44,883 bases of DNA from assembly GCA_030395855.1 (NCBI GenBank), contig GCA_030395855.1_4325.1; one strand, written 5' to 3'. This document shows, piece after piece, positions 7,849 to 40,727 of this stretch; positions within the stretch are counted from its first letter, which is position 1; each line of letters begins with the position of its first letter. Under the pieces are notes generated by a model. That model made no database searches. It saw only the letters and a list, made by a program, of their open reading frames with translations, and was not told the DNA's origin. Both the position numbers and the translations under genes were made by a program. This DNA is from a phage.

Positions 7849-8505
7849 ATGGCTCATTTATCAAATGGCACGCAGGTCTTCGTGGAAGGATCTCGCGGAA
7901 CTGCAATTGAAGTAACTGCAATCTCTAACGCAGCTACCCCTGTTTTAACTGTATCTGACGGATCCGGCCTGGCTAAGGGTGACTACCTTCTGTTTACCGC
8001 CTCCAGCTCAACCCTACTTAGCGACAAGCAGGTGAGAGTAACTGAAGTTTCTGGCACTTCGGTAACAGTTGAAGGTATTGATACCTCCAACACCACCAAG
8101 TTCCCGACCGGCTTAACTGGTGAAGTTGTTAAGATTGAATCATGGTTAGAAGTTCCGTGCGTTCAGGACGTTTCCACTGATGGCGGAGAACAGCAGTTCG
8201 TTAACTTCCAGTGTTTGTCCGATGACCGCGAGCAGCAGATTCCTACTTATAAATCTTCGGTAACTAACACCTTCACCTTTGCTCATGAGTACACCAACCC
8301 GGTTTATCCGGTTCTGCGTAAGTATGATGAGTCTGGTCAGGTTGTTGCTATTCGCCTGTTCGTACCTCGTGCCAAGGAAATGCGCTTGCAGTCCGGCACT
8401 ATCTCCTTCAACGACACCCCGACCATTGGTGTTAACGAAATCGAAACGGTATCCATCGCTGTATCCATTCGTGGCCGACTGTCCTCTGTGGCGGCTGAAG
8501 TTTAA
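7849..8505 (+). CDS. major tail (tube) protein
   Basis: 218-aa ORF directly upstream of chaperone and tape measure genes, strong terminator downstream. Confidence 0.6.
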   Translation: MAHLSNGTQVFVEGSRGTAIEVTAISNAATPVLTVSDGSGLAKGDYLLFTASSSTLLSDKQVRVTEVSGTSVTVEGIDTSNTTKFPTGLTGEVVKIESWLEVPCVQDVSTDGGEQQFVNFQCLSDDREQQIPTYKSSVTNTFTFAHEYTNPVYPVLRKYDESGQVVAIRLFVPRAKEMRLQSGTISFNDTPTIGVNEIETVSIAVSIRGRLSSVAAEV

Positions 8506-8513
8506 AACATAAA

Positions 8514-8534
8514 CCCTCTTCGGAGGGTTTTTTA
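8514..8534 (+). terminator. intrinsic terminator
   Basis: Hairpin ccctc-ttcg-gaggg followed by T7. Confidence 0.75.
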
Positions 8535-8539
8535 TTGCA

Positions 8540-8582
8540 TAGCACTTTTTGCTAAAGCACTTATACAATCTTACTGTATAGT
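8540..8582 (+). promoter_or_regulatory. conserved promoter/operator-like element copy
   Basis: tagcactttttgcta at 8540-8554, 22-nt spacer, TATAGT at 8577-8582, leader CATCGAAACGAA. Confidence 0.6.
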
Positions 8583-8615: not shown

Positions 8616-8741
8616 ATGAAAGCAATCATCGCAATCTCAGCAGTAACCGCGGCAACAATCCTTTCAATTACTTATGTTAAGTTTTGCATGTCAGTGGCTG
8701 AGAGATACTCAATCTGGCAATTTGCAACTCATTGGCACTAA
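8616..8741 (+). CDS. small hydrophobic protein (41 aa, putative membrane protein)
   Basis: Not in ORF track (<60 aa); RBS GAGGGA before ATG 8616; predicted single hydrophobic helix; preceded by the conserved element. Confidence 0.35.
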   Translation: MKAIIAISAVTAATILSITYVKFCMSVAERYSIWQFATHWH

Positions 8742-8783
8742 GTGTTAGAATGCTTACTCACAAACAATAAGAGGATTAACAAA

Positions 8784-9098
8784 ATGGCAAAGTTCAAACT
8801 TTCACTGGCGGCACTCCCTGACTTTAAGCTGCCTGTAAAATTCAAGTTGGCTAATGACCAGGATGTAGAGGTTATCTTTACAGTCAAGCACAAGAAAACA
8901 TCTGAGTTGCAGGAATTGCTTAGCAAGGAGAATTTAAGCACCAAGGAACTCATTATGGCAATTGCTTCTGATTGGGATTTGGAAGAAGAATACAACGAGG
9001 ATAACGTTAATGAGTTCTCAGACCTGTTCCCAGCCTCAACAGTTGCACTGACCACCGCTTATATGCAAGCACTTGCTGGTCAGCGAGTAAAAAACTAA
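8784..9098 (+). CDS. tail assembly chaperone (lambda gpG-like)
   Basis: RBS AAGAGGA before ATG 8784; directly upstream of tape measure gene; ends just after a slippery heptamer. Confidence 0.65.
   Translation: MAKFKLSLAALPDFKLPVKFKLANDQDVEVIFTVKHKKTSELQELLSKENLSTKELIMAIASDWDLEEEYNEDNVNEFSDLFPASTVALTTAYMQALAGQRVKN
9089..9095 (+). other. programmed -1 ribosomal frameshift slippery site A_AAA_AAC
   Basis: Heptamer A AAA AAC in the G frame three codons before its stop; the -1 frame continues open to 9418. Confidence 0.65.
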
Positions 9099-9418
9099 AA
9101 CGAGCGGTGTATCTACAGTACCAGTCAGAGCCAACTGATGCCGAACTGGAAGCCATTGGGATGCGCCGCTCTGATTACGAAGATGAAGAGCCTGAAGTTT
9201 TACACTTCGACGAGAACATGATGAAGGCCTGGGACATTTATTGTTCAATGGCTACGCAGTGGAGAGTCGGAGCTAACGGAGCAACAGGCCTTGATTACAA
9301 CGTGCTAAATTTCCTCTTTAGAGTGTATAATGTTTCTGAAGAAGAATTGGTGCTCAGCGATTTACGCATCCTTGAAGCTAAGGCTCTAGAGATGATGGAT
9401 AACCTGAGGAAAAAATAA
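9095..9418 (+). CDS. T extension of tail assembly chaperone (expressed as G-T fusion by -1 frameshift)
   Basis: Open frame in -1 relative to G with no convincing independent start; conserved G/GT arrangement before tape measure gene. Confidence 0.55.
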   Translation, partial: LKRAVYLQYQSEPTDAELEAIGMRRSDYEDEEPEVLHFDENMMKAWDIYCSMATQWRVGANGATGLDYNVLNFLFRVYNVSEEELVLSDLRILEAKALEMMDNLRKK

Positions 9419-9453
9419 CCCGCTTCGGCGGGTTTTCTATTATGGAGGCTTAG

Positions 9454-12435
9454 ATGGCAACAAATGAATTAGCCGGAATCACACTAGCCGTAGACGTATT
9501 TCAAGTAGACAGGGGTACGCAATCCCTACAAAAGTTTAGGCAGGCAAACCAGCAAGCCGCTTCCGGCATTGGTGAATTCGTCAATGCAGAGCAGGTTGCA
9601 AAGACTCAGGCCAGGGACACAGCTCGTGCACTGGCTGAGCAGCAAGCATCTTTTGCCAAATTGCAAACAGCTATTGATCCAACTGCAGCAAAGTTCCGTA
9701 AGCTCCAGGAGGCTGCTGTAGGCTTGGACAAGGCTTTCGCGGCTGGCGTAGTTCCTGATGAGGAGTTTTTCCGATTAGGTGAGGCGCTTGAAACGCAAAA
9801 CGCAAAACTTGCTCGTTCACGCGCGGCTCTAACTGAAGAGGGAAGAGCGGCGGCGCAGGCTGCAAAGGATAAGGCAAAAGCGAAGGCTGAAGCTGACAGG
9901 TTCATTGCGTCACTTGAGCGACAGGCTCAAGCGGCAACATTGACGCGTGAGGAGTACTTAAAATTACAGGCTGCCCAGCTTGGCGTGAGTTCTCAGGCAG
10001 CGCCTATTATTGACAGAATCGCCGATGCATCACAGAAGGCAAACACCCAGCTAATTGCTCAGAGCAAGGCCTTTCAACGCTCTGGCTTAAGCGCAGGTCA
10101 ATACAAGGCTGCAATCTCTCAATTGCCAGCGCAGATTACAGATATTGGGACATCACTTGCTGGCGGCATTCCGATTTGGCTTATTGCAATTCAGCAAGGC
10201 GGACAAATTAAGGATGCATTTGGAGGTATTGGTAACACCTTTAGATTCGCGCTCGCAGCCTTAAATCCATTCAATGTTGCTGTTGGCGTTTTGGGTGGGG
10301 CACTTGTTGCTCTCGGTATCGGTGCTGCTCAGGCAGAGAGTGAATTCAGAGCATTAAACTCTGCAATAGCTTTTTCCAATAACTCAACAATCGCATCAAT
10401 CTCGCAGGTTAGAGAGTTGGTTAGCTCTGTTTCTGATGCTACTGGTGCAACCAGAGGACTTGTGACTAGCATCGCAACAAGCCTTATTGAGCAAGGGAAC
10501 CTTACTCTGACGCAGATTGACAAGATTACCAAATCAACCGCCAGATGGGCGCAGTTGACAGGTAAGGATGCTAGGGAGATTACTGGTTACTATAACCAGA
10601 TTGCAAGTGACCCAATCCATGGTTTAGTTGATTTGGATAAGCGCTTTAACTTCCTAACGCAGGGGCAGTTGACAACAATCGAAAACCTGAGAAAGACAAG
10701 GGGAGAAGTTGAGGCAGTTACTGCCGCGATTGATATTTTCAGCAAGTCACAGGAGGCCAACATTAACGACATTGCAGCACAGTTAACTCCACTTGAGTTA
10801 GCCTGGAATGATTTCAGAAAGTACACCTCTGATATCTGGGATGCAATTAGTCGTAGAACGGTTGGGGCGCTTAACCTGTTTGTTGACGTAATCGCCGGAA
10901 CAATTGAGCAGATCAGGGTATTCATTAACCAGGGCGACGCTCTGATTGGTGAATTTGTAATTAGCGCAACTCAGGCATTGCAGAACATCCCAGGCCTTGA
11001 TGGTGTCGGTGATGATGTAATCAAGAGTCAGCAGAAGATTATCGATGCCGCCAAGAGGCAAAACCTTGAGTTGGAAAAGTCTATCAAGGAGCGCGATGCC
11101 AGAATCAGAGACGGAGAGCTTGGTTACGTTACTCGCAGGGAAAATCAGAATACCAACGAGCAATCAGGCACGGATGAGGAGTTTGCAAAAAGGAAGAAGG
11201 CGCTTCAGGATGAACTTGATGCGATCAAGAAGAACAGGAAAGAAGAAAATGGTAGGGTTAAAGAGCAAAGAGACCTTACAATTGGTTACGAATCTGGCGT
11301 GCTGGCACTTCAGGCTCAACTCAAGGTTCTTCAGGAAAATAGGGATATTGGCGCAGTAATAAGTAATGAGCGAAAGCAGTATCTTCAGGAGGTTGCCAAA
11401 TTCCAGATTCTTGAGCAAAGACAAAGTGATGGCTCAATAAAAAAAGAGCAGGCAAGACTTCTAATTGAAAAGGATAAAGTTCTTGAGCTAGCTAGACAGA
11501 AGGCTGAGCTAGGCGACCAGATTGTTTTGCAGGAGAGAGCTAATAAGTTGGCTGAAGATAACCGCAAGAAGATTCTTCAGATTAACAATGAGGCAAGCAA
11601 TATTAATTTGGGGTCTGGATTATCATCTCGCGAGCAGCAAAGAGCTAAGGAGATTCAGGCACTCAAATCCAATCAGGTTAATGCTGGCGGTGCGATTGAT
11701 GACGTTGATTTTCAACAGCTACTGGAGGCAAGACGTAACTTTTATGCTCAGGAGGATGCGCTACGTGAAAACTGGCTCGCTGGTGTGAATCAATCCTTTG
11801 CAAATTGGGCTGAGAGCGCGACGGATGCATTCTCAATTGCTGGAAGTTTAACCACAACAGTCTTTGAGGGAATTACTGACCAGATCACTAACCTTGTAAC
11901 AACTGGCGAAACAAACTTCAGAGAGTTTACGGTTAGCATTCTTAAGCAGATTGCTAAGATTGCAACTCAGCTTCTTGTTGTCAAGGCTATCGAGTCTAGC
12001 TTGAGTAGCTTTGGTGGCACTGGTGGCGCTATTGGTTCTATAGCATCCGCGATTGGCGGCGGATTCGCTAGTGGTGGCTACACTGGTGATGGCGGGAAGT
12101 ATCAGCCAGCAGGAACGGTACACCGAGGTGAGTTTGTGTTCACAAAAGAAGCGACTAGCAGAATTGGTGTTAAGAACCTTTACGCACTAATGAAGGGTTA
12201 TGCGAATGGCGGCGCTGTAGGTGGTCCATCTGGTTATGCTAATGGCGGCTTGGTTTCTGGTGGTACAGATGTTAATGTTAGCGGCATCACTGTTAACGTA
12301 AACTCCGGTGTAGGTAGCGACCCAGAGCAAGCTAAGGCATTGCAAAGTGGTGTCAAGGCTATCGTAGCGGAAGAGATTGCGCAGTCTTTCCAGCAGGGCG
12401 GCAGGGCGTATCAGTACCTGCGCGGATTCAACTAA
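9454..12435 (+). CDS. tail tape measure protein
   Basis: 993-aa ORF, RBS GGAGG; Ala/Gln-rich helical N-terminus, Gly-rich C-terminal region; follows the G/GT chaperone. Confidence 0.85.
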   Translation: MATNELAGITLAVDVFQVDRGTQSLQKFRQANQQAASGIGEFVNAEQVAKTQARDTARALAEQQASFAKLQTAIDPTAAKFRKLQEAAVGLDKAFAAGVVPDEEFFRLGEALETQNAKLARSRAALTEEGRAAAQAAKDKAKAKAEADRFIASLERQAQAATLTREEYLKLQAAQLGVSSQAAPIIDRIADASQKANTQLIAQSKAFQRSGLSAGQYKAAISQLPAQITDIGTSLAGGIPIWLIAIQQGGQIKDAFGGIGNTFRFALAALNPFNVAVGVLGGALVALGIGAAQAESEFRALNSAIAFSNNSTIASISQVRELVSSVSDATGATRGLVTSIATSLIEQGNLTLTQIDKITKSTARWAQLTGKDAREITGYYNQIASDPIHGLVDLDKRFNFLTQGQLTTIENLRKTRGEVEAVTAAIDIFSKSQEANINDIAAQLTPLELAWNDFRKYTSDIWDAISRRTVGALNLFVDVIAGTIEQIRVFINQGDALIGEFVISATQALQNIPGLDGVGDDVIKSQQKIIDAAKRQNLELEKSIKERDARIRDGELGYVTRRENQNTNEQSGTDEEFAKRKKALQDELDAIKKNRKEENGRVKEQRDLTIGYESGVLALQAQLKVLQENRDIGAVISNERKQYLQEVAKFQILEQRQSDGSIKKEQARLLIEKDKVLELARQKAELGDQIVLQERANKLAEDNRKKILQINNEASNINLGSGLSSREQQRAKEIQALKSNQVNAGGAIDDVDFQQLLEARRNFYAQEDALRENWLAGVNQSFANWAESATDAFSIAGSLTTTVFEGITDQITNLVTTGETNFREFTVSILKQIAKIATQLLVVKAIESSLSSFGGTGGAIGSIASAIGGGFASGGYTGDGGKYQPAGTVHRGEFVFTKEATSRIGVKNLYALMKGYANGGAVGGPSGYANGGLVSGGTDVNVSGITVNVNSGVGSDPEQAKALQSGVKAIVAEEIAQSFQQGGRAYQYLRGFN

Positions 12436-18434: not shown

Positions 18435-19394
18435 GTAGAAGTTTGGGATAAATGGAAGTGCCATTGATATGTTCGTGTCGAAAGGAAACTGAGCGCCTGT
18501 CTGAGTTGAGTAGTTACCTATTACAGATCCAGGAACAGCCCTAACGGAGCCTCCAGACATGCAAACACCCTTGTATCGTAAGTTGTTATACCCTCCGGTA
18601 ACTCTAGTCGTAGCGCCGCACCTAAGCAGCGGGAAGAAACCACCATTTATTGACTGATATCCATTGCTTATTTGTATAAATCCACCAAGAACGAATGGGC
18701 GGCGAACACTTGAAAAAACAATCTGACCAGAACTATTTGACATTGTGAGTCCGGGTCCAGCTGGTGGTGGTTCATTCCTGAATATCACCAATTGAACGTA
18801 AGTACTTGCCGCAACATCATCTGTACCTCCGTAGGTTATATCCCTACACCATATTGTTGATCCATCTGATTCAAGTGATACGTTTGGATTATCCCACTTG
18901 CCGAATGGTATTCCGCTAACTGGTAGCGATGCTGCACCGTTAACCTGTATACCCCCAACCCATGCTGCTGACATTAGTCTCGAGTTGCTTGATATAGCAA
19001 GGAAATCAGTTGAGTTCTCAACAAGTATTCCAGGACTTGATGAGGATGAAGCCGGTAGTATCTCAAAGCAATTCCCTGCAAAGTCAATTATTCGACCATT
19101 AGCACCGTTAAAGTTACTAAGCGTTATCCTTCCAACTCCGTCATTAACCTTTTGGAATCCATTCATATAATAAACTTCAGGTATAACATCGTAAGCATCA
19201 ACGTGAACAGCCTTTATTGGTAGACAGAAGGCCGTAGAACCAGGTGACATTGTCAATCCAAAATCCCACGAACTTGCAGGAGTTGAAAGTCCATTGGTAT
19301 TTATTGAGCCAGTCACGGCTGGTGCCCTTAATCCTGCCGTTATTTCCATCGCTGGTCTTCCGTCATTGAGGTCAATCAATATACCCTGCGGCAT
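18432..19394 (-). CDS. hypothetical Gly/Ser/Asn-rich protein (320 aa), co-transcribed with upstream lipoprotein gene
   Basis: RBS AAGGAG before ATG at 19394; TAATG stop/start overlap with the lipoprotein gene. Confidence 0.6.
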   Translation of the reverse strand: MPQGILIDLNDGRPAMEITAGLRAPAVTGSINTNGLSTPASSWDFGLTMSPGSTAFCLPIKAVHVDAYDVIPEVYYMNGFQKVNDGVGRITLSNFNGANGRIIDFAGNCFEILPASSSSSPGILVENSTDFLAISSNSRLMSAAWVGGIQVNGAASLPVSGIPFGKWDNPNVSLESDGSTIWCRDITYGGTDDVAASTYVQLVIFRNEPPPAGPGLTMSNSSGQIVFSSVRRPFVLGGFIQISNGYQSINGGFFPLLRCGATTRVTGGYNNLRYKGVCMSGGSVRAVPGSVIGNYSTQTGAQFPFDTNISMALPFIPNFY

Positions 19395-19639
19395 TATTTC
19401 CACTCCTTGCTGCCATGATCTGCAATGGAGCCACCGTAACCGCCGCCAGCTTTGCTTTCAATGCCAGCGTAGCGAATATCAACCTCACCAGCCGGAACAA
19501 CTACGCCACCCTTCCATTTAGCTACGCACACACCAATTGCTTGCGTTGCACACCAACCATCCGGGCGAGGACCGGAAGAACAACCAACTGTCATGATTAC
19601 TGCTGCGGCGATGATTGCTGATTTGATTAGGTTAGTCAT
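19394..19639 (-). CDS. small lipoprotein (82 aa), candidate Cor-like superinfection exclusion protein
   Basis: N-terminal signal peptide ending in lipobox MTVGC; RBS GAGGAA; conserved promoter element upstream on minus strand. Confidence 0.55.
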
Positions 19640-25154: not shown

Positions 25155-25178
25155 TGTGTAGAGTCTCCATTTGTAAAA

Positions 25179-25193
25179 TAGCACGAATTGCTA
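25179..25193. promoter_or_regulatory. palindromic operator-like site (TAGCACGAATTGCTA) without the usual -10/leader, just upstream of tailspike start
   Basis: Exact copy of the palindrome 25 nt upstream of the tailspike ATG, adjacent to the minus-strand terminator. Confidence 0.5.
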
Positions 25194-25218
25194 AAGTGGA
25201 TTGTAGCATCTTTATGAC

Positions 25219-39542: not shown

Positions 39543-40160
39543 ATGGCTAAAATCATCATTCTCAACGGTCCGGCTTCGGTTGGCAAAGACACTATCGGTA
39601 ACGCGCTTGCTAAAGATTACAATTGCATCCCGACGAGCTTTAAGATTCCTATGTTTGAGATCGCAGCGTCAATCCTGGGCGCTCGGGCGTTCAGCAAATT
39701 CATCACCGCTTATGATGATCGAGATCAGAAAGAGATGCCTCATGATTTTCTCGGTGGGAAAACCTGCCGTGAGTTCATGATCTGGATTAGCGAGTCGGTG
39801 GTCAAGCCGCTATTTGGCAATCAGCAGTTCGGTAAGCTGACGAGCGAGCGCATCCAGCTTTGTGACGAGGGATTTAGCTTTGTTTGCACTGATGGCGGTT
39901 TTCCTGATGAGGTTATCCGTCTGGTGGAAGACGGCCACTATGTTACCGTTGTGCGCCTATTTATGGATGGCAAGACCTTCGATGGAGATAGTCGTGATTA
40001 TATCCGCATCAAGGAATCGCATTTCCCTGATTATAAGCAATATAACGAGCATGACGTGCATCTGTTGAATGGTGATATTGACGGCGGCGTCATGGCAGTG
40101 GTTCGCGCCTGCGGTATCCGTCCTGCAATCGACGAGTGGGCCGACAATATTCCCTGGTAA
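39543..40160 (+). CDS. P-loop kinase, dNMP-kinase-like (paralog 2)
   Basis: Walker A GPASVGKDT; shared FMIWISESV and TFDGDSR blocks with the ORF at 32108..32662. Confidence 0.6.
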   Translation: MAKIIILNGPASVGKDTIGNALAKDYNCIPTSFKIPMFEIAASILGARAFSKFITAYDDRDQKEMPHDFLGGKTCREFMIWISESVVKPLFGNQQFGKLTSERIQLCDEGFSFVCTDGGFPDEVIRLVEDGHYVTVVRLFMDGKTFDGDSRDYIRIKESHFPDYKQYNEHDVHLLNGDIDGGVMAVVRACGIRPAIDEWADNIPW

Positions 40161-40552: not shown

Positions 40553-40686
40553 TTTACATCCACACATACTACACTGGCAAGTTTAATAGCGTTAAGCACG
40601 CCATTGTTCACGATAGCTACGATAGCGCAAAGGCTCAATGGTTGGTTCTTGGCGGCGATATTAATTCATATAGAATCGCTAAATAG
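40549..40686 (+). CDS. small hypothetical protein (45 aa)
   Basis: Not in ORF track; ATGA coupling; stop TAG embedded in the next conserved element. Confidence 0.3.
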   Translation: MIYIHTYYTGKFNSVKHAIVHDSYDSAKAQWLVLGGDINSYRIAK

Positions 40687-40727
40687 CACGAATTGCTAAA
40701 ACAGTATTGGGGGTAATTTGTTATAGT
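40684..40727 (+). promoter_or_regulatory. conserved promoter/operator-like element copy
   Basis: tagcacgaattgcta, 23-nt spacer, TATAGT inside a GGGGGTAA/TTACCCC inverted repeat, leader CCCCATCGAAACGAA. Confidence 0.6.

What the first reader, a model, noticed from the sequence alone, without database searches (positions are those of the whole stretch)
8784..9418. Programmed -1 frameshift site (A_AAA_AAC) producing a G-T tail chaperone fusion
The chaperone ORF ends at 9098. Three codons earlier is the slippery heptamer A AAA AAC (9089-9095), and the -1 frame stays open for another 107 codons with no convincing start of its own. This matches the conserved G/GT frameshift of lambda-like tail assembly chaperones upstream of the tape measure gene.
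Basis: partly seen in the sequence, partly recalled or inferred. Interest (0 to 1): 0.45.

Follow-up and report, generated by a model that had tools for sequence, protein, structure and literature searches.

The report
Tail chaperone G/GT frameshift site
This is the usual programmed -1 ribosomal frameshift that lets a T1-like E. coli phage make a short and a long form of its tail assembly chaperone; it is real and strongly conserved, but it is already known in this phage family.

Summary
The G ORF runs from ATG 8784 to TAA 9096-9098. A_AAA_AAC lies at 9089-9095 in the zero-frame register. The -1 frame stays open for 107 codons, to TAA 9416-9418. The pair sits between the major tail gene (7849-8505) and the tape measure gene (9454-12435).

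G is Pfam Phage_TAC_4, T is DUF1799, and one PHROG profile spans both halves. Of 71 distinct junctions from relatives, 54 carry A_AAA_AAC at the same position. Two distant phages carry G_GGA_AAC there.

The first -1-frame codons (L-K-R-A-V-Y-L) are conserved through synonymous changes, upstream of any start codon. GTG 9107 occurs in only 10 of 68 sequences, has a poor Shine-Dalgarno match and lies inside a hairpin arm.

The window is a Drexlerviridae (Braunvirinae) phage. GenBank already annotates the joined product in family members LL5 and KLPN1.

One addition: a stable hairpin (9102-9171) starts 6 nt after the heptamer and is a candidate stimulator. Other lineages pair the same 5' arm with a different 3' arm. 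No fusion protein has been observed for this phage.

The parts
7849..8505 (+). Major tail (tube) protein gene, the upstream neighbour
   Evidence: PF08813 Phage_tail_3, 4.8e-67; phrog_584, 6.9e-89
8769..8775 (+). Shine-Dalgarno sequence AAGAGGA for G
   Evidence: Anti-SD duplex -5.8 kcal/mol upstream of ATG 8784; flank conserved in relatives
8784..9098 (+). G: tail assembly chaperone, zero-frame product, 104 aa, 11.8 kDa
   Evidence: PF08748 Phage_TAC_4, 4.9e-33 (114 bits against a cut-off of 21.1); phrog_569 and phrog_17368 positions 1-107
9089..9095 (+). Slippery heptamer A_AAA_AAC, in register, directly followed by the G stop TAA 9096-9098
   Evidence: same motif at the same position in 54 of 71 distinct junctions of relatives
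9095..9418 (+). T segment: -1 frame, 107 codons plus TAA. With 8784-9095 it gives the 211-aa, 24.3-kDa GT fusion, join(8784..9095,9095..9418)
   Evidence: PF08809 DUF1799, 2.8e-16; phrog_17368 positions 109-210; codon periodicity and synonymous-only changes from the first codon
9107..9109 (+). GTG, the candidate independent start of T (judged unlikely to be the main route)
   Evidence: Anti-SD duplex only -2.2 kcal/mol; present in 10 of 68 distinct relatives; lies inside the 5' arm of the hairpin
9102..9171 (+). Predicted mRNA hairpin, a candidate frameshift stimulator. It has a 13-bp outer stem (9102-9114 paired with 9159-9171) plus inner helices, and a 6-nt spacer after the heptamer
   Evidence: -30.6 kcal/mol alone; z -3.36 against dinucleotide shuffles and against synonymous-codon randomisation (1 of 200); pair probabilities 0.99-1.0; persists in a 221-nt context. 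No covariation within the clade. The function is inferred.
9417..9434 (+). Terminator-like hairpin plus T-run between T and the tape measure gene
   Evidence: the T1 and AHP24 records annotate terminators at the equivalent place
9454..12435 (+). Tape measure protein gene, the downstream neighbour and presumed client of G/GT
   Evidence: PF06791 TMP_2, 3.9e-49; PF09718, 6.4e-20; phrog_24, 1e-231; SD GGAGG at -9.3 kcal/mol

Best explanation
Most ribosomes translating the chaperone gene G (8784-9098) terminate at TAA 9096 and release the 104-aa G protein. A minority slip back one base on A_AAA_AAC (9089-9095) while tRNA-Lys and tRNA-Asn occupy AAA and AAC. They then read CTA at 9095 and continue for 107 codons, giving a 211-aa GT fusion (...QRVKN-LKRAVYL...).

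The weak heptamer sets a low GT:G ratio. It is possibly assisted by the stop codon next to it and by the hairpin that starts 6 nt downstream.

By analogy with lambda, G and the G part of GT would coat the tape measure protein, and the T part would recruit the major tail protein. Neither protein would end up in the virion.

Shown here: the sequence anatomy, the family memberships, the conservation of the site, and selection on the -1 frame starting at the site.
Inferred: the slip itself, its efficiency, the role of the hairpin and the assembly function.
For: - Anatomy: in-register heptamer abutting the stop, with the -1 frame open for 107 codons.
- Synteny: major tail protein, G, T, tape measure protein, each with a Pfam hit above threshold.
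- phrog_17368 (213 positions) matches G at positions 1-107 and T at 109-210, so it is a family built on annotated fusions.
- tblastn of the fusion finds 1136 phage records. In every listed record whose match spans both halves, it falls into two pieces in different frames.
- Heptamers at -7 from the G stop, among 71 distinct junctions: A_AAA_AAC in 54, G_GGA_AAC in 2 distant phages, A_AAG or A_AAA_G lysine-slip variants in 12. The remaining 3 come from error-laden assemblies.
- Codon periodicity in the T frame begins immediately after the heptamer: entropy 0.69 / 0.57 / 1.38 at codon positions 1 / 2 / 3. Amino-acid identity is 0.66 in the T frame against 0.36 and 0.39 in the other frames.
- Arg at codon 3 is encoded by AGG, CGG, CGC or CGA. 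Within the window's own clade, AAACGA changes to AAGAGG: three substitutions, all synonymous, upstream of the GTG.
- The alignment across the junction has no gaps, and L105 and A108 are invariant.
- Joined CDSs are annotated in LL5 and KLPN1, with lengths that fit a -1 shift.
- Literature: the T1-like phage Stevie (PMC4319613); the lambda G/GT mechanism and 30:1 ratio (PMC5009743); A_AAA_AAC is the proven IS1 shift site and is weaker than A_AAA_AAG in E. coli (PMC4066793 and PMC5009743).
Against: - There is no protein-level evidence for this phage or, as far as I found, for any Braunvirinae member.
- A_AAA_AAC is a poor shifter in E. coli, because tRNA-Asn re-pairs non-cognately on AAA (PMC4066793).
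- The window's clade does have a GTG at codon 5 of the T frame, only 8 nt after the G stop. The nearest GenBank records annotate T as a separate CDS from it.
- The hairpin has no compensatory covariation within the clade.
- Seven A_AAA_AAC sequences among the relatives lack a significant structure at this position.
Confidence: 0.9

Rival explanations
1. T is made as a separate 103-aa protein from GTG 9107. Initiation would be either independent or by termination-reinitiation of ribosomes that have just finished G at TAA 9096, 8 nt upstream. No fusion would be needed.
For: The GTG is present and close to the G stop. The nearest GenBank relatives annotate T this way. Gene callers elsewhere also call separate T ORFs.
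Against: - The GTG is found in only 10 of 68 distinct junctions, and 27 of 68 have no ATG/GTG/TTG in the first ~30 T codons examined.
- The four codons before it (L-K-R-A) are conserved through synonymous changes, even within the GTG-bearing clade.
- The Shine-Dalgarno match is poor, -2.2 kcal/mol against -5.8 for G and -9.3 for the tape measure gene.
- The GTG lies inside a stem with pair probability of about 1.0.
- The called T ORFs in databases start at many different positions, including residues 9, 20, 23 and 42, which is typical of arbitrary start calls.
Confidence: 0.05
2. The frame change happens at transcription. RNA polymerase stutters on the A6 run (9089-9094) and adds one A to a fraction of mRNAs, which standard translation then reads as GT.
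For: The site is a run of six A residues. Inserting one A gives the same downstream frame. Transcriptional slippage is used by some IS elements and by dnaX of Thermus (PMC5009743).
Against: - Relatives keep the frameshift at the same position with G_GGA_AAC, A_AAG_GTC or A_AAG_CCT, which have no long homopolymer.
- What is conserved is the codon register of a ribosomal X_XXY_YYZ site.
- From my own knowledge, appreciable slippage by E. coli RNA polymerase usually needs runs of about 8-9 or more.
- A hairpin placed 6 nt downstream fits ribosomal stimulation.
Confidence: 0.04
3. The T frame is a non-functional remnant, and the heptamer is a coincidence of Lys-Asn coding at the C-terminus of G.
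For: About 0.07 in-register heptamers are expected by chance in the overlap. The K-N C-terminus of G is itself conserved.
Against: The T frame is under strong purifying selection across 68 distinct sequences and matches a Pfam family. It is retained in 1136 phage records.
Confidence: 0.01

Closest known systems
Lambda G/GT tail assembly chaperone frameshift (Levin, Hendrix & Casjens 1993; Xu, Hendrix & Duda 2004, 2013, 2014)
   Same: The two ORFs lie between the major tail and tape measure genes. The second is in the -1 frame without its own start. There is an in-register X_XXY_YYZ heptamer near the end of G. A low-level fusion product is expected.
   Different: - There is no detectable sequence similarity to lambda G or T (hhalign probability 0.17%); the Pfam families here are PF08748 and PF08809.
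- The heptamer is A_AAA_AAC, not G_GGA_AAG.
- It abuts the stop codon, whereas lambda's heptamer ends 16 nt before the G stop.
- A stable hairpin is predicted 6 nt downstream. From my own recollection, lambda's site needs no downstream structure.
Annotated tape measure chaperone frameshift of other Drexlerviridae: LL5 (MH491968, CPT_LL5_45), KLPN1 (NC_028760, gp36), Stevie (PMC4319613)
   Same: These are orthologous genes (44-59% amino-acid identity over GT). LL5 has the same A_AAA_AAC at the same position. The joined CDS lengths fit a -1 shift.
   Different: - The window's clade (Braunvirinae) and phage T1 itself are deposited with two separate CDSs and no join.
- KLPN1 has A_AAA_GTT instead of the canonical heptamer.
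- The window's clade uses a long-range 3' arm for the hairpin instead of the local GGGCGGUUU...AAACCGCCC hairpin of LL5 and T1.
IS1 insA-insB' -1 frameshift
   Same: It uses the same A_AAA_AAC heptamer in E. coli, gives low efficiency, and fuses an upstream ORF to a -1 ORF (PMC4066793).
   Different: The proteins and biology are unrelated. IS1 has no established stimulator, whereas this site has a candidate hairpin and an adjacent stop codon.

Membership tests
G/GT tail assembly chaperone programmed frameshift of long-tailed phages (Xu et al. 2004) | Two consecutive ORFs between the major tail protein gene and the tape measure gene | tested here: met
   7849-8505 is PF08813; 8784-9098 is G; 9095-9418 is T; 9454-12435 is PF06791 + PF09718
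G/GT tail assembly chaperone programmed frameshift of long-tailed phages (Xu et al. 2004) | The second ORF overlaps the first in the -1 frame and has no conserved start of its own | tested here: met
   The -1 frame is open 9014-9418. The GTG occurs in only 10 of 68 relatives, 27 of 68 have no start codon in the first ~30 T codons examined, and the SD match is -2.2 kcal/mol
G/GT tail assembly chaperone programmed frameshift of long-tailed phages (Xu et al. 2004) | A canonical slippery sequence in the zero-frame register within the overlap, conserved among relatives | tested here: met
   A_AAA_AAC at 9089-9095. It occurs in 54 of 71 distinct junctions, G_GGA_AAC in 2, and A_AAG or A_AAA_G variants in 12
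G/GT tail assembly chaperone programmed frameshift of long-tailed phages (Xu et al. 2004) | Protein-level selection on the -1 frame starting at the shift site | tested here: met
   Third-position entropy is 1.38 against 0.69 and 0.57. L-K-R-A-V-Y-L is kept through synonymous codons
G/GT tail assembly chaperone programmed frameshift of long-tailed phages (Xu et al. 2004) | A fusion protein is detected, both G and GT are needed for tail assembly, and both are absent from virions | not testable with these tools
   Needs expression, mass spectrometry and genetics. I found no such data for Braunvirinae.
Pfam PF08748 Phage_TAC_4 | Score above the gathering threshold over the full-length model | tested here: met
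   114.4 bits against 21.1; residues 1-104 on model positions 1-124 of 124
Pfam PF08809 DUF1799 (T segment) | Score above the gathering threshold | tested here: met
   59.9 bits against 26; residues 21-101 on model positions 1-80 of 80. 488 cluster representatives at E <= 1e-3
Lambda gpG / gpT sequence families | Detectable sequence homology to lambda G-T | tested here: not met
   hhalign of the 14-sequence GT profile against lambda GT gives probability 0.17%, E 0.34. The relation is one of position and mechanism, not sequence.
Tail assembly chaperone fold | The predicted structure of G resembles solved chaperone structures | tested here: inconclusive
   The single-sequence AlphaFold2 model has mean pLDDT 53.6, too low for a fold search. 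There are no PDB relatives by sequence or by profile. A deeper alignment could not be supplied.
Downstream stem-loop stimulator of -1 frameshifting (dnaX / IS3 type) | A stable structure starting about 5-9 nt 3' of the heptamer | tested here: met
   The stem starts at 9102, a 6-nt spacer. -30.6 kcal/mol, pair probabilities 0.99-1.0
Downstream stem-loop stimulator of -1 frameshifting (dnaX / IS3 type) | More stable than coding constraints alone explain | tested here: met
   z is -3.2 to -4.7 against synonymous-codon randomisation in all 10 clade sequences (0-1 of 200). 33 of 54 A_AAA_AAC junctions score 10 of 200 or fewer
Downstream stem-loop stimulator of -1 frameshifting (dnaX / IS3 type) | Compensatory base-pair covariation | tested here: not met
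   Within the clade there is only one one-sided change (A-U to G-U) and one break, and no double changes. The clade is too shallow for a fair test. Across lineages the 3' arm is replaced rather than covarying.
Downstream stem-loop stimulator of -1 frameshifting (dnaX / IS3 type) | Disrupting the stem lowers frameshifting and compensatory repair restores it | not testable with these tools
   Needs a reporter assay.

The most novel reading that the evidence does not exclude
The hairpin at 9102-9171 is a real stimulator that tunes a weak heptamer. On this reading, Drexlerviridae lineages have kept the 5' arm, which is fixed by the K-R-A-V-Y-L codons, while changing its 3' partner. T1, LL5 and the Tempevirinae use a local arm (AAACCGCC, about 30 nt downstream). 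Braunvirinae use a distal arm (GGAUGCGCCGCUC, about 60 nt downstream). Rogunavirinae instead switched to the more shift-prone A_AAG motif and lost the structure. That pattern would mean motif strength and structure co-evolve to hold the G:GT ratio constant.
Probability: 0.4. Interest if true: 0.3.

Novelty: already known. Interest (0 to 1): 0.12.

Why it matters
Mainly for annotation. The nearest deposited genomes (vB_EcoS-12210I, BEK1-1, BEK3, ZL19, DTL) and the T1 reference record list G and T as two separate genes. Some truncate T, and some call them 'tape measure protein'. The correct feature is join(8784..9095,9095..9418) with ribosomal slippage.

The G:GT ratio is critical for lambda tail assembly, so a correct model matters for engineering T1-like phages. 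The lineage-specific hairpins offer a small natural experiment on how frameshift efficiency is kept constant. That is a refinement of known biology, not a new kind of system.

Tried and rejected
- The search for homologous proteins with the 211-aa fusion returned a single hit, P0001, a T-frame ORF fragment. No deep alignment could be built from it.
T alone was searched instead.
- The single-sequence AlphaFold2 model of G had pLDDT 53.6, too poor to use, so no fold search was run.
- PDB searches by sequence and by profile found nothing. NCBIfam gave no hit.
- Rfam gave only sub-threshold hits, on the terminator.
- Comparison of the GT profile with lambda GT showed no homology.
- P0058, a 1149-aa 'T homologue' with 7 matched stretches, is a repetitive spurious protein.
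- A second in-register heptamer with a long -1 frame, G_GGA_AAA at 39756, lies in a shadow ORF inside the real gene 39543-40160 and is not a frameshift candidate.
- Loci L087, L089 and L090 looked like exceptions, but their assemblies have several frame breaks in G and T.
- An upstream Shine-Dalgarno-like stimulator, as in dnaX, was looked for. Only a weak -3.1 kcal/mol match was found.
- The +1 frame closes 40 nt after the G stop, so a +1 shift is excluded.

Full report
**What is in the sequence**

The ORF starting at ATG 8784 is preceded by AAGAGGA at 8769-8775. It ends with ...CAG CGA GTA AAA AAC TAA, with the stop at 9096-9098, and encodes 104 aa. The run AAAAAAC at 9089-9095 is in the X_XXY_YYZ register (GT[A AAA AAC]) and is the only such in-register heptamer in the ORF.

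The -1 frame is open from 9014 to TAA 9416-9418. Re-reading C 9095 gives CTA AAA CGA GCG GTG TAT..., that is 107 codons starting LKRAVYLQYQ.

About 0.07 in-register heptamers would be expected by chance in the 27-codon overlap (118 XXXYYYZ in 44,883 nt). The motif alone is therefore only suggestive.

A window-wide scan gives a stronger result. Of 73 in-register heptamers in stop-to-stop ORFs of at least 80 codons on both strands, the median -1 extension is 10 codons. Only two exceed 100. One is this site. The other, at 39756, lies in a shadow ORF inside the real gene 39543-40160.

**What the genes are**

- The window is a T1-like siphophage of E. coli. It is about 90% identical in DNA to Braunvirinae/Veterinaerplatzvirus phages of the Drexlerviridae, namely BEK1-1, ZL19 and vB_EcoS-12210I.
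- The upstream gene 7849-8505 is the major tail tube protein (PF08813).
- G is PF08748 Phage_TAC_4 (4.9e-33, full-length model).
- The -1 segment is PF08809 DUF1799 (2.8e-16).
- The downstream gene 9454-12435 is the tape measure protein (PF06791 + PF09718).
- phrog_17368, a 213-position profile, matches G at positions 1-107 and the -1 segment at 109-210. That family is therefore built from annotated G-T fusions.

**Comparative evidence**

tblastn of the conceptual 211-aa fusion finds 1136 phage records. Wherever a listed match spans both halves, it splits into two pieces in different frames.

I collected 21 annotated GenBank loci and 80 IMG/VR loci. Together with the window's own junction they gave 71 distinct junction sequences.

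| Motif in the 7 nt before the G stop | Distinct junctions | Where |
|---|---|---|
| A_AAA_AAC | 54 | includes T1, LL5, tiwna, herni, a Yersinia phage and a Dhillonvirus |
| G_GGA_AAC | 2 | distant Pseudomonas and Ralstonia phages (26-33% identity) |
| A_AAG_GTC | 5 | Rogunavirinae |
| A_AAA_GTY | 6 | Webervirus |
| A_AAG_CCT | 1 | HJK1 |
| unclear | 3 | assemblies with several frame breaks |

The last three motif types in the table all retain a lysine-codon slip site.

Replacement of one canonical heptamer by another at the same codon position is what a ribosomal slip site predicts. It argues against RNA polymerase stuttering on an A run.

**Selection on the -1 frame starts at the site**

Over the 22 codons after the heptamer, in 68 distinct sequences:

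- Entropy is 0.69 / 0.57 / 1.38 at T-frame codon positions 1 / 2 / 3.
- Amino-acid identity is 0.66 in the T frame, against 0.36 and 0.39 in the other two frames.
- The other two frames contain stop codons in 68 and 48 of the sequences.
- The first residues L-K-R-A-V-Y-L are nearly invariant while their codons vary. Arg is encoded by AGG, CGG, CGC or CGA, and Val by GTT, GTG, GTC or GTA.

Within the window's own clade, the two codons before the GTG differ by three substitutions (AAACGA against AAGAGG), all synonymous in the -1 frame.

The protein alignment crosses the junction without gaps, and L105 and A108 are invariant.

**The rival start at GTG 9107**

- It occurs in only 10 of 68 distinct sequences, and 27 of 68 have no ATG/GTG/TTG in the first ~30 T codons examined.
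- Its anti-Shine-Dalgarno pairing is -2.2 kcal/mol. G has -5.8 and the tape measure gene -9.3.
- It lies inside a stem whose pairs have probability of about 1.0.
- T-family ORFs called in a 1.84-billion-protein library begin at many different alignment positions, including 1, 9, 20, 23 and 42. None of the real top hits carries an in-frame G domain.

**Prior knowledge**

- GenBank annotates a joined 'frameshift product' CDS for the orthologues in LL5 (Tlsvirus) and KLPN1 (Webervirus), and their lengths fit a -1 shift.
- The nearest relatives of the window and the T1 reference record list two separate CDSs. The gap is in annotation, not in knowledge.
- The lambda paradigm is summarised in PMC5009743: a G:GT ratio of about 30:1, G binds the tape measure protein, T binds the major tail protein, and neither is in the virion.
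- A_AAA_AAC is the proven IS1 shift site. In E. coli it is much less shift-prone than A_AAA_AAG (PMC4066793 and PMC5009743), which suits a low-level product.
- The G-T pair here has no detectable sequence similarity to lambda G-T (hhalign probability 0.17%).

**An addition: a candidate stimulatory hairpin**

RNA folding places a hairpin at 9102-9171, starting 6 nt after the heptamer. Its outer stem is 13 bp, GAGCGGUGUAUCU paired with GGAUGCGCCGCUC.

- Its energy is -30.6 kcal/mol when folded alone.
- The z-score is -3.36 against dinucleotide shuffles.
- The z-score is -3.36 against randomisation of synonymous codons in the T frame (1 of 200).
- It persists in a 221-nt context.
- Its pair probabilities are 0.99-1.0.
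- All 10 distinct sequences of the clade behave alike, with z from -3.2 to -4.7.

Other A_AAA_AAC lineages (T1, LL5, Tempevirinae) pair the same 5' arm with a local 3' arm instead (GGGCGGUUU...AAACCGCCC, spacer 6-7 nt). The window has lost that local arm: Q-K-P-P has become Q-S-E-P. Overall, 33 of 54 A_AAA_AAC junctions score 10 of 200 or fewer against synonymous controls. The five Rogunavirinae junctions, which carry the intrinsically shiftier A_AAG, show no structure, with a median z of +0.5.

Several cautions apply.

- The sequences are phylogenetically related, so they are not independent observations.
- There is no compensatory covariation within the clade.
- Seven A_AAA_AAC sequences among the relatives lack a significant structure at this position.
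- No Rfam family matches.

The stimulator role is therefore an inference, at roughly 40%.

**Verdict**

This is a textbook feature that is already annotated within the same phage family, so both novelty and interest are low. The practical output is a corrected annotation, join(8784..9095,9095..9418), and a better experimental design. Reporter fragments must include the hairpin through 9171, and the junction peptide needs a protease other than trypsin.

Noticed in passing
window 686-41777 (17 sites, for example 8539-8556, 25178-25195, 40683-40700): The T1/Stevie-type repeat ATAGCAYKWWTTGYTAAA occurs 17 times with up to 2 mismatches, against 0.09 expected by chance. Most copies are on the + strand. 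One copy lies just after the terminator that follows the major tail gene. The repeat is known from T1-like phages (PMC4319613), and that paper calls its role in T1 and Stevie unknown.
   Followed up: partly
window 8616-8741: A 41-aa hydrophobic ORF (MKAIIAISAVTAATILSITYVKFCM...) sits between the major tail gene and G. Relatives 12210I and BEK3 carry an unrelated 82-aa ORF at the same place. The flanks, including the ribosome binding site and first codons, are conserved, so this looks like a cassette swap. It has no Pfam or PHROG hit.
   Followed up: partly
window 8511-8530, 8722-8751 and 9417-9434: Terminator-like hairpins bracket the small-ORF/G/T block, and a promoter-like site (TTGCAA, 18 nt, TAGAAT, with TG) lies just upstream of G. 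The AHP24 and T1 records annotate terminators at equivalent places, and AHP24 also annotates a promoter. A terminator between T and the tape measure gene implies read-through or separate transcription of that gene.
   Followed up: no
L006, L010 (Rogunavirinae); L008, L021 (Webervirus); L014 (HJK1): These relatives lack a canonical heptamer at the conserved position. They have GCA_AAG_GTC, GCA_AAA_GTY or CAA_AAG_CCT instead, which are single tRNA-Lys slip sites of the A_AAG / A_AAA_G type. KLPN1 is nevertheless annotated with a joined CDS.
   Followed up: partly
L087 and L090 (IMG/VR isolate genomes): The A run at the slip site appears to be A5 rather than A6 (G reads ...QRVKTK...), which puts T in the +1 frame. 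Both assemblies have other frame breaks in G or T, so homopolymer sequencing errors are the likely cause. Real indel variants at the slippery run were not excluded.
   Followed up: partly
L009 (phage T1, NC_005833) 18872-19506; L001, L002, L003, L015, L016: The T1 RefSeq record and all the closest relatives of the window lack the joined GT CDS. T1 gene 39 is truncated to an internal ATG (19339). PHROG-derived names label G and T as 'tail length tape measure protein'.
   Followed up: yes
window 39756-39762: G_GGA_AAA is in register in a 66-aa shadow ORF (39580-39780), with 132 open codons in the -1 frame. It is a false positive, because the '-1 frame' is the real 205-aa gene 39543-40160.
   Followed up: yes
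L025 (IMGVR_UViG_3300000290_000010, 46,391 bp): This metagenome-derived viral contig has a best tblastn segment 99% identical to the query, compared with 98.1% over the whole fusion for the best GenBank isolate, BEK3. It may be the same species as the window.
   Followed up: no
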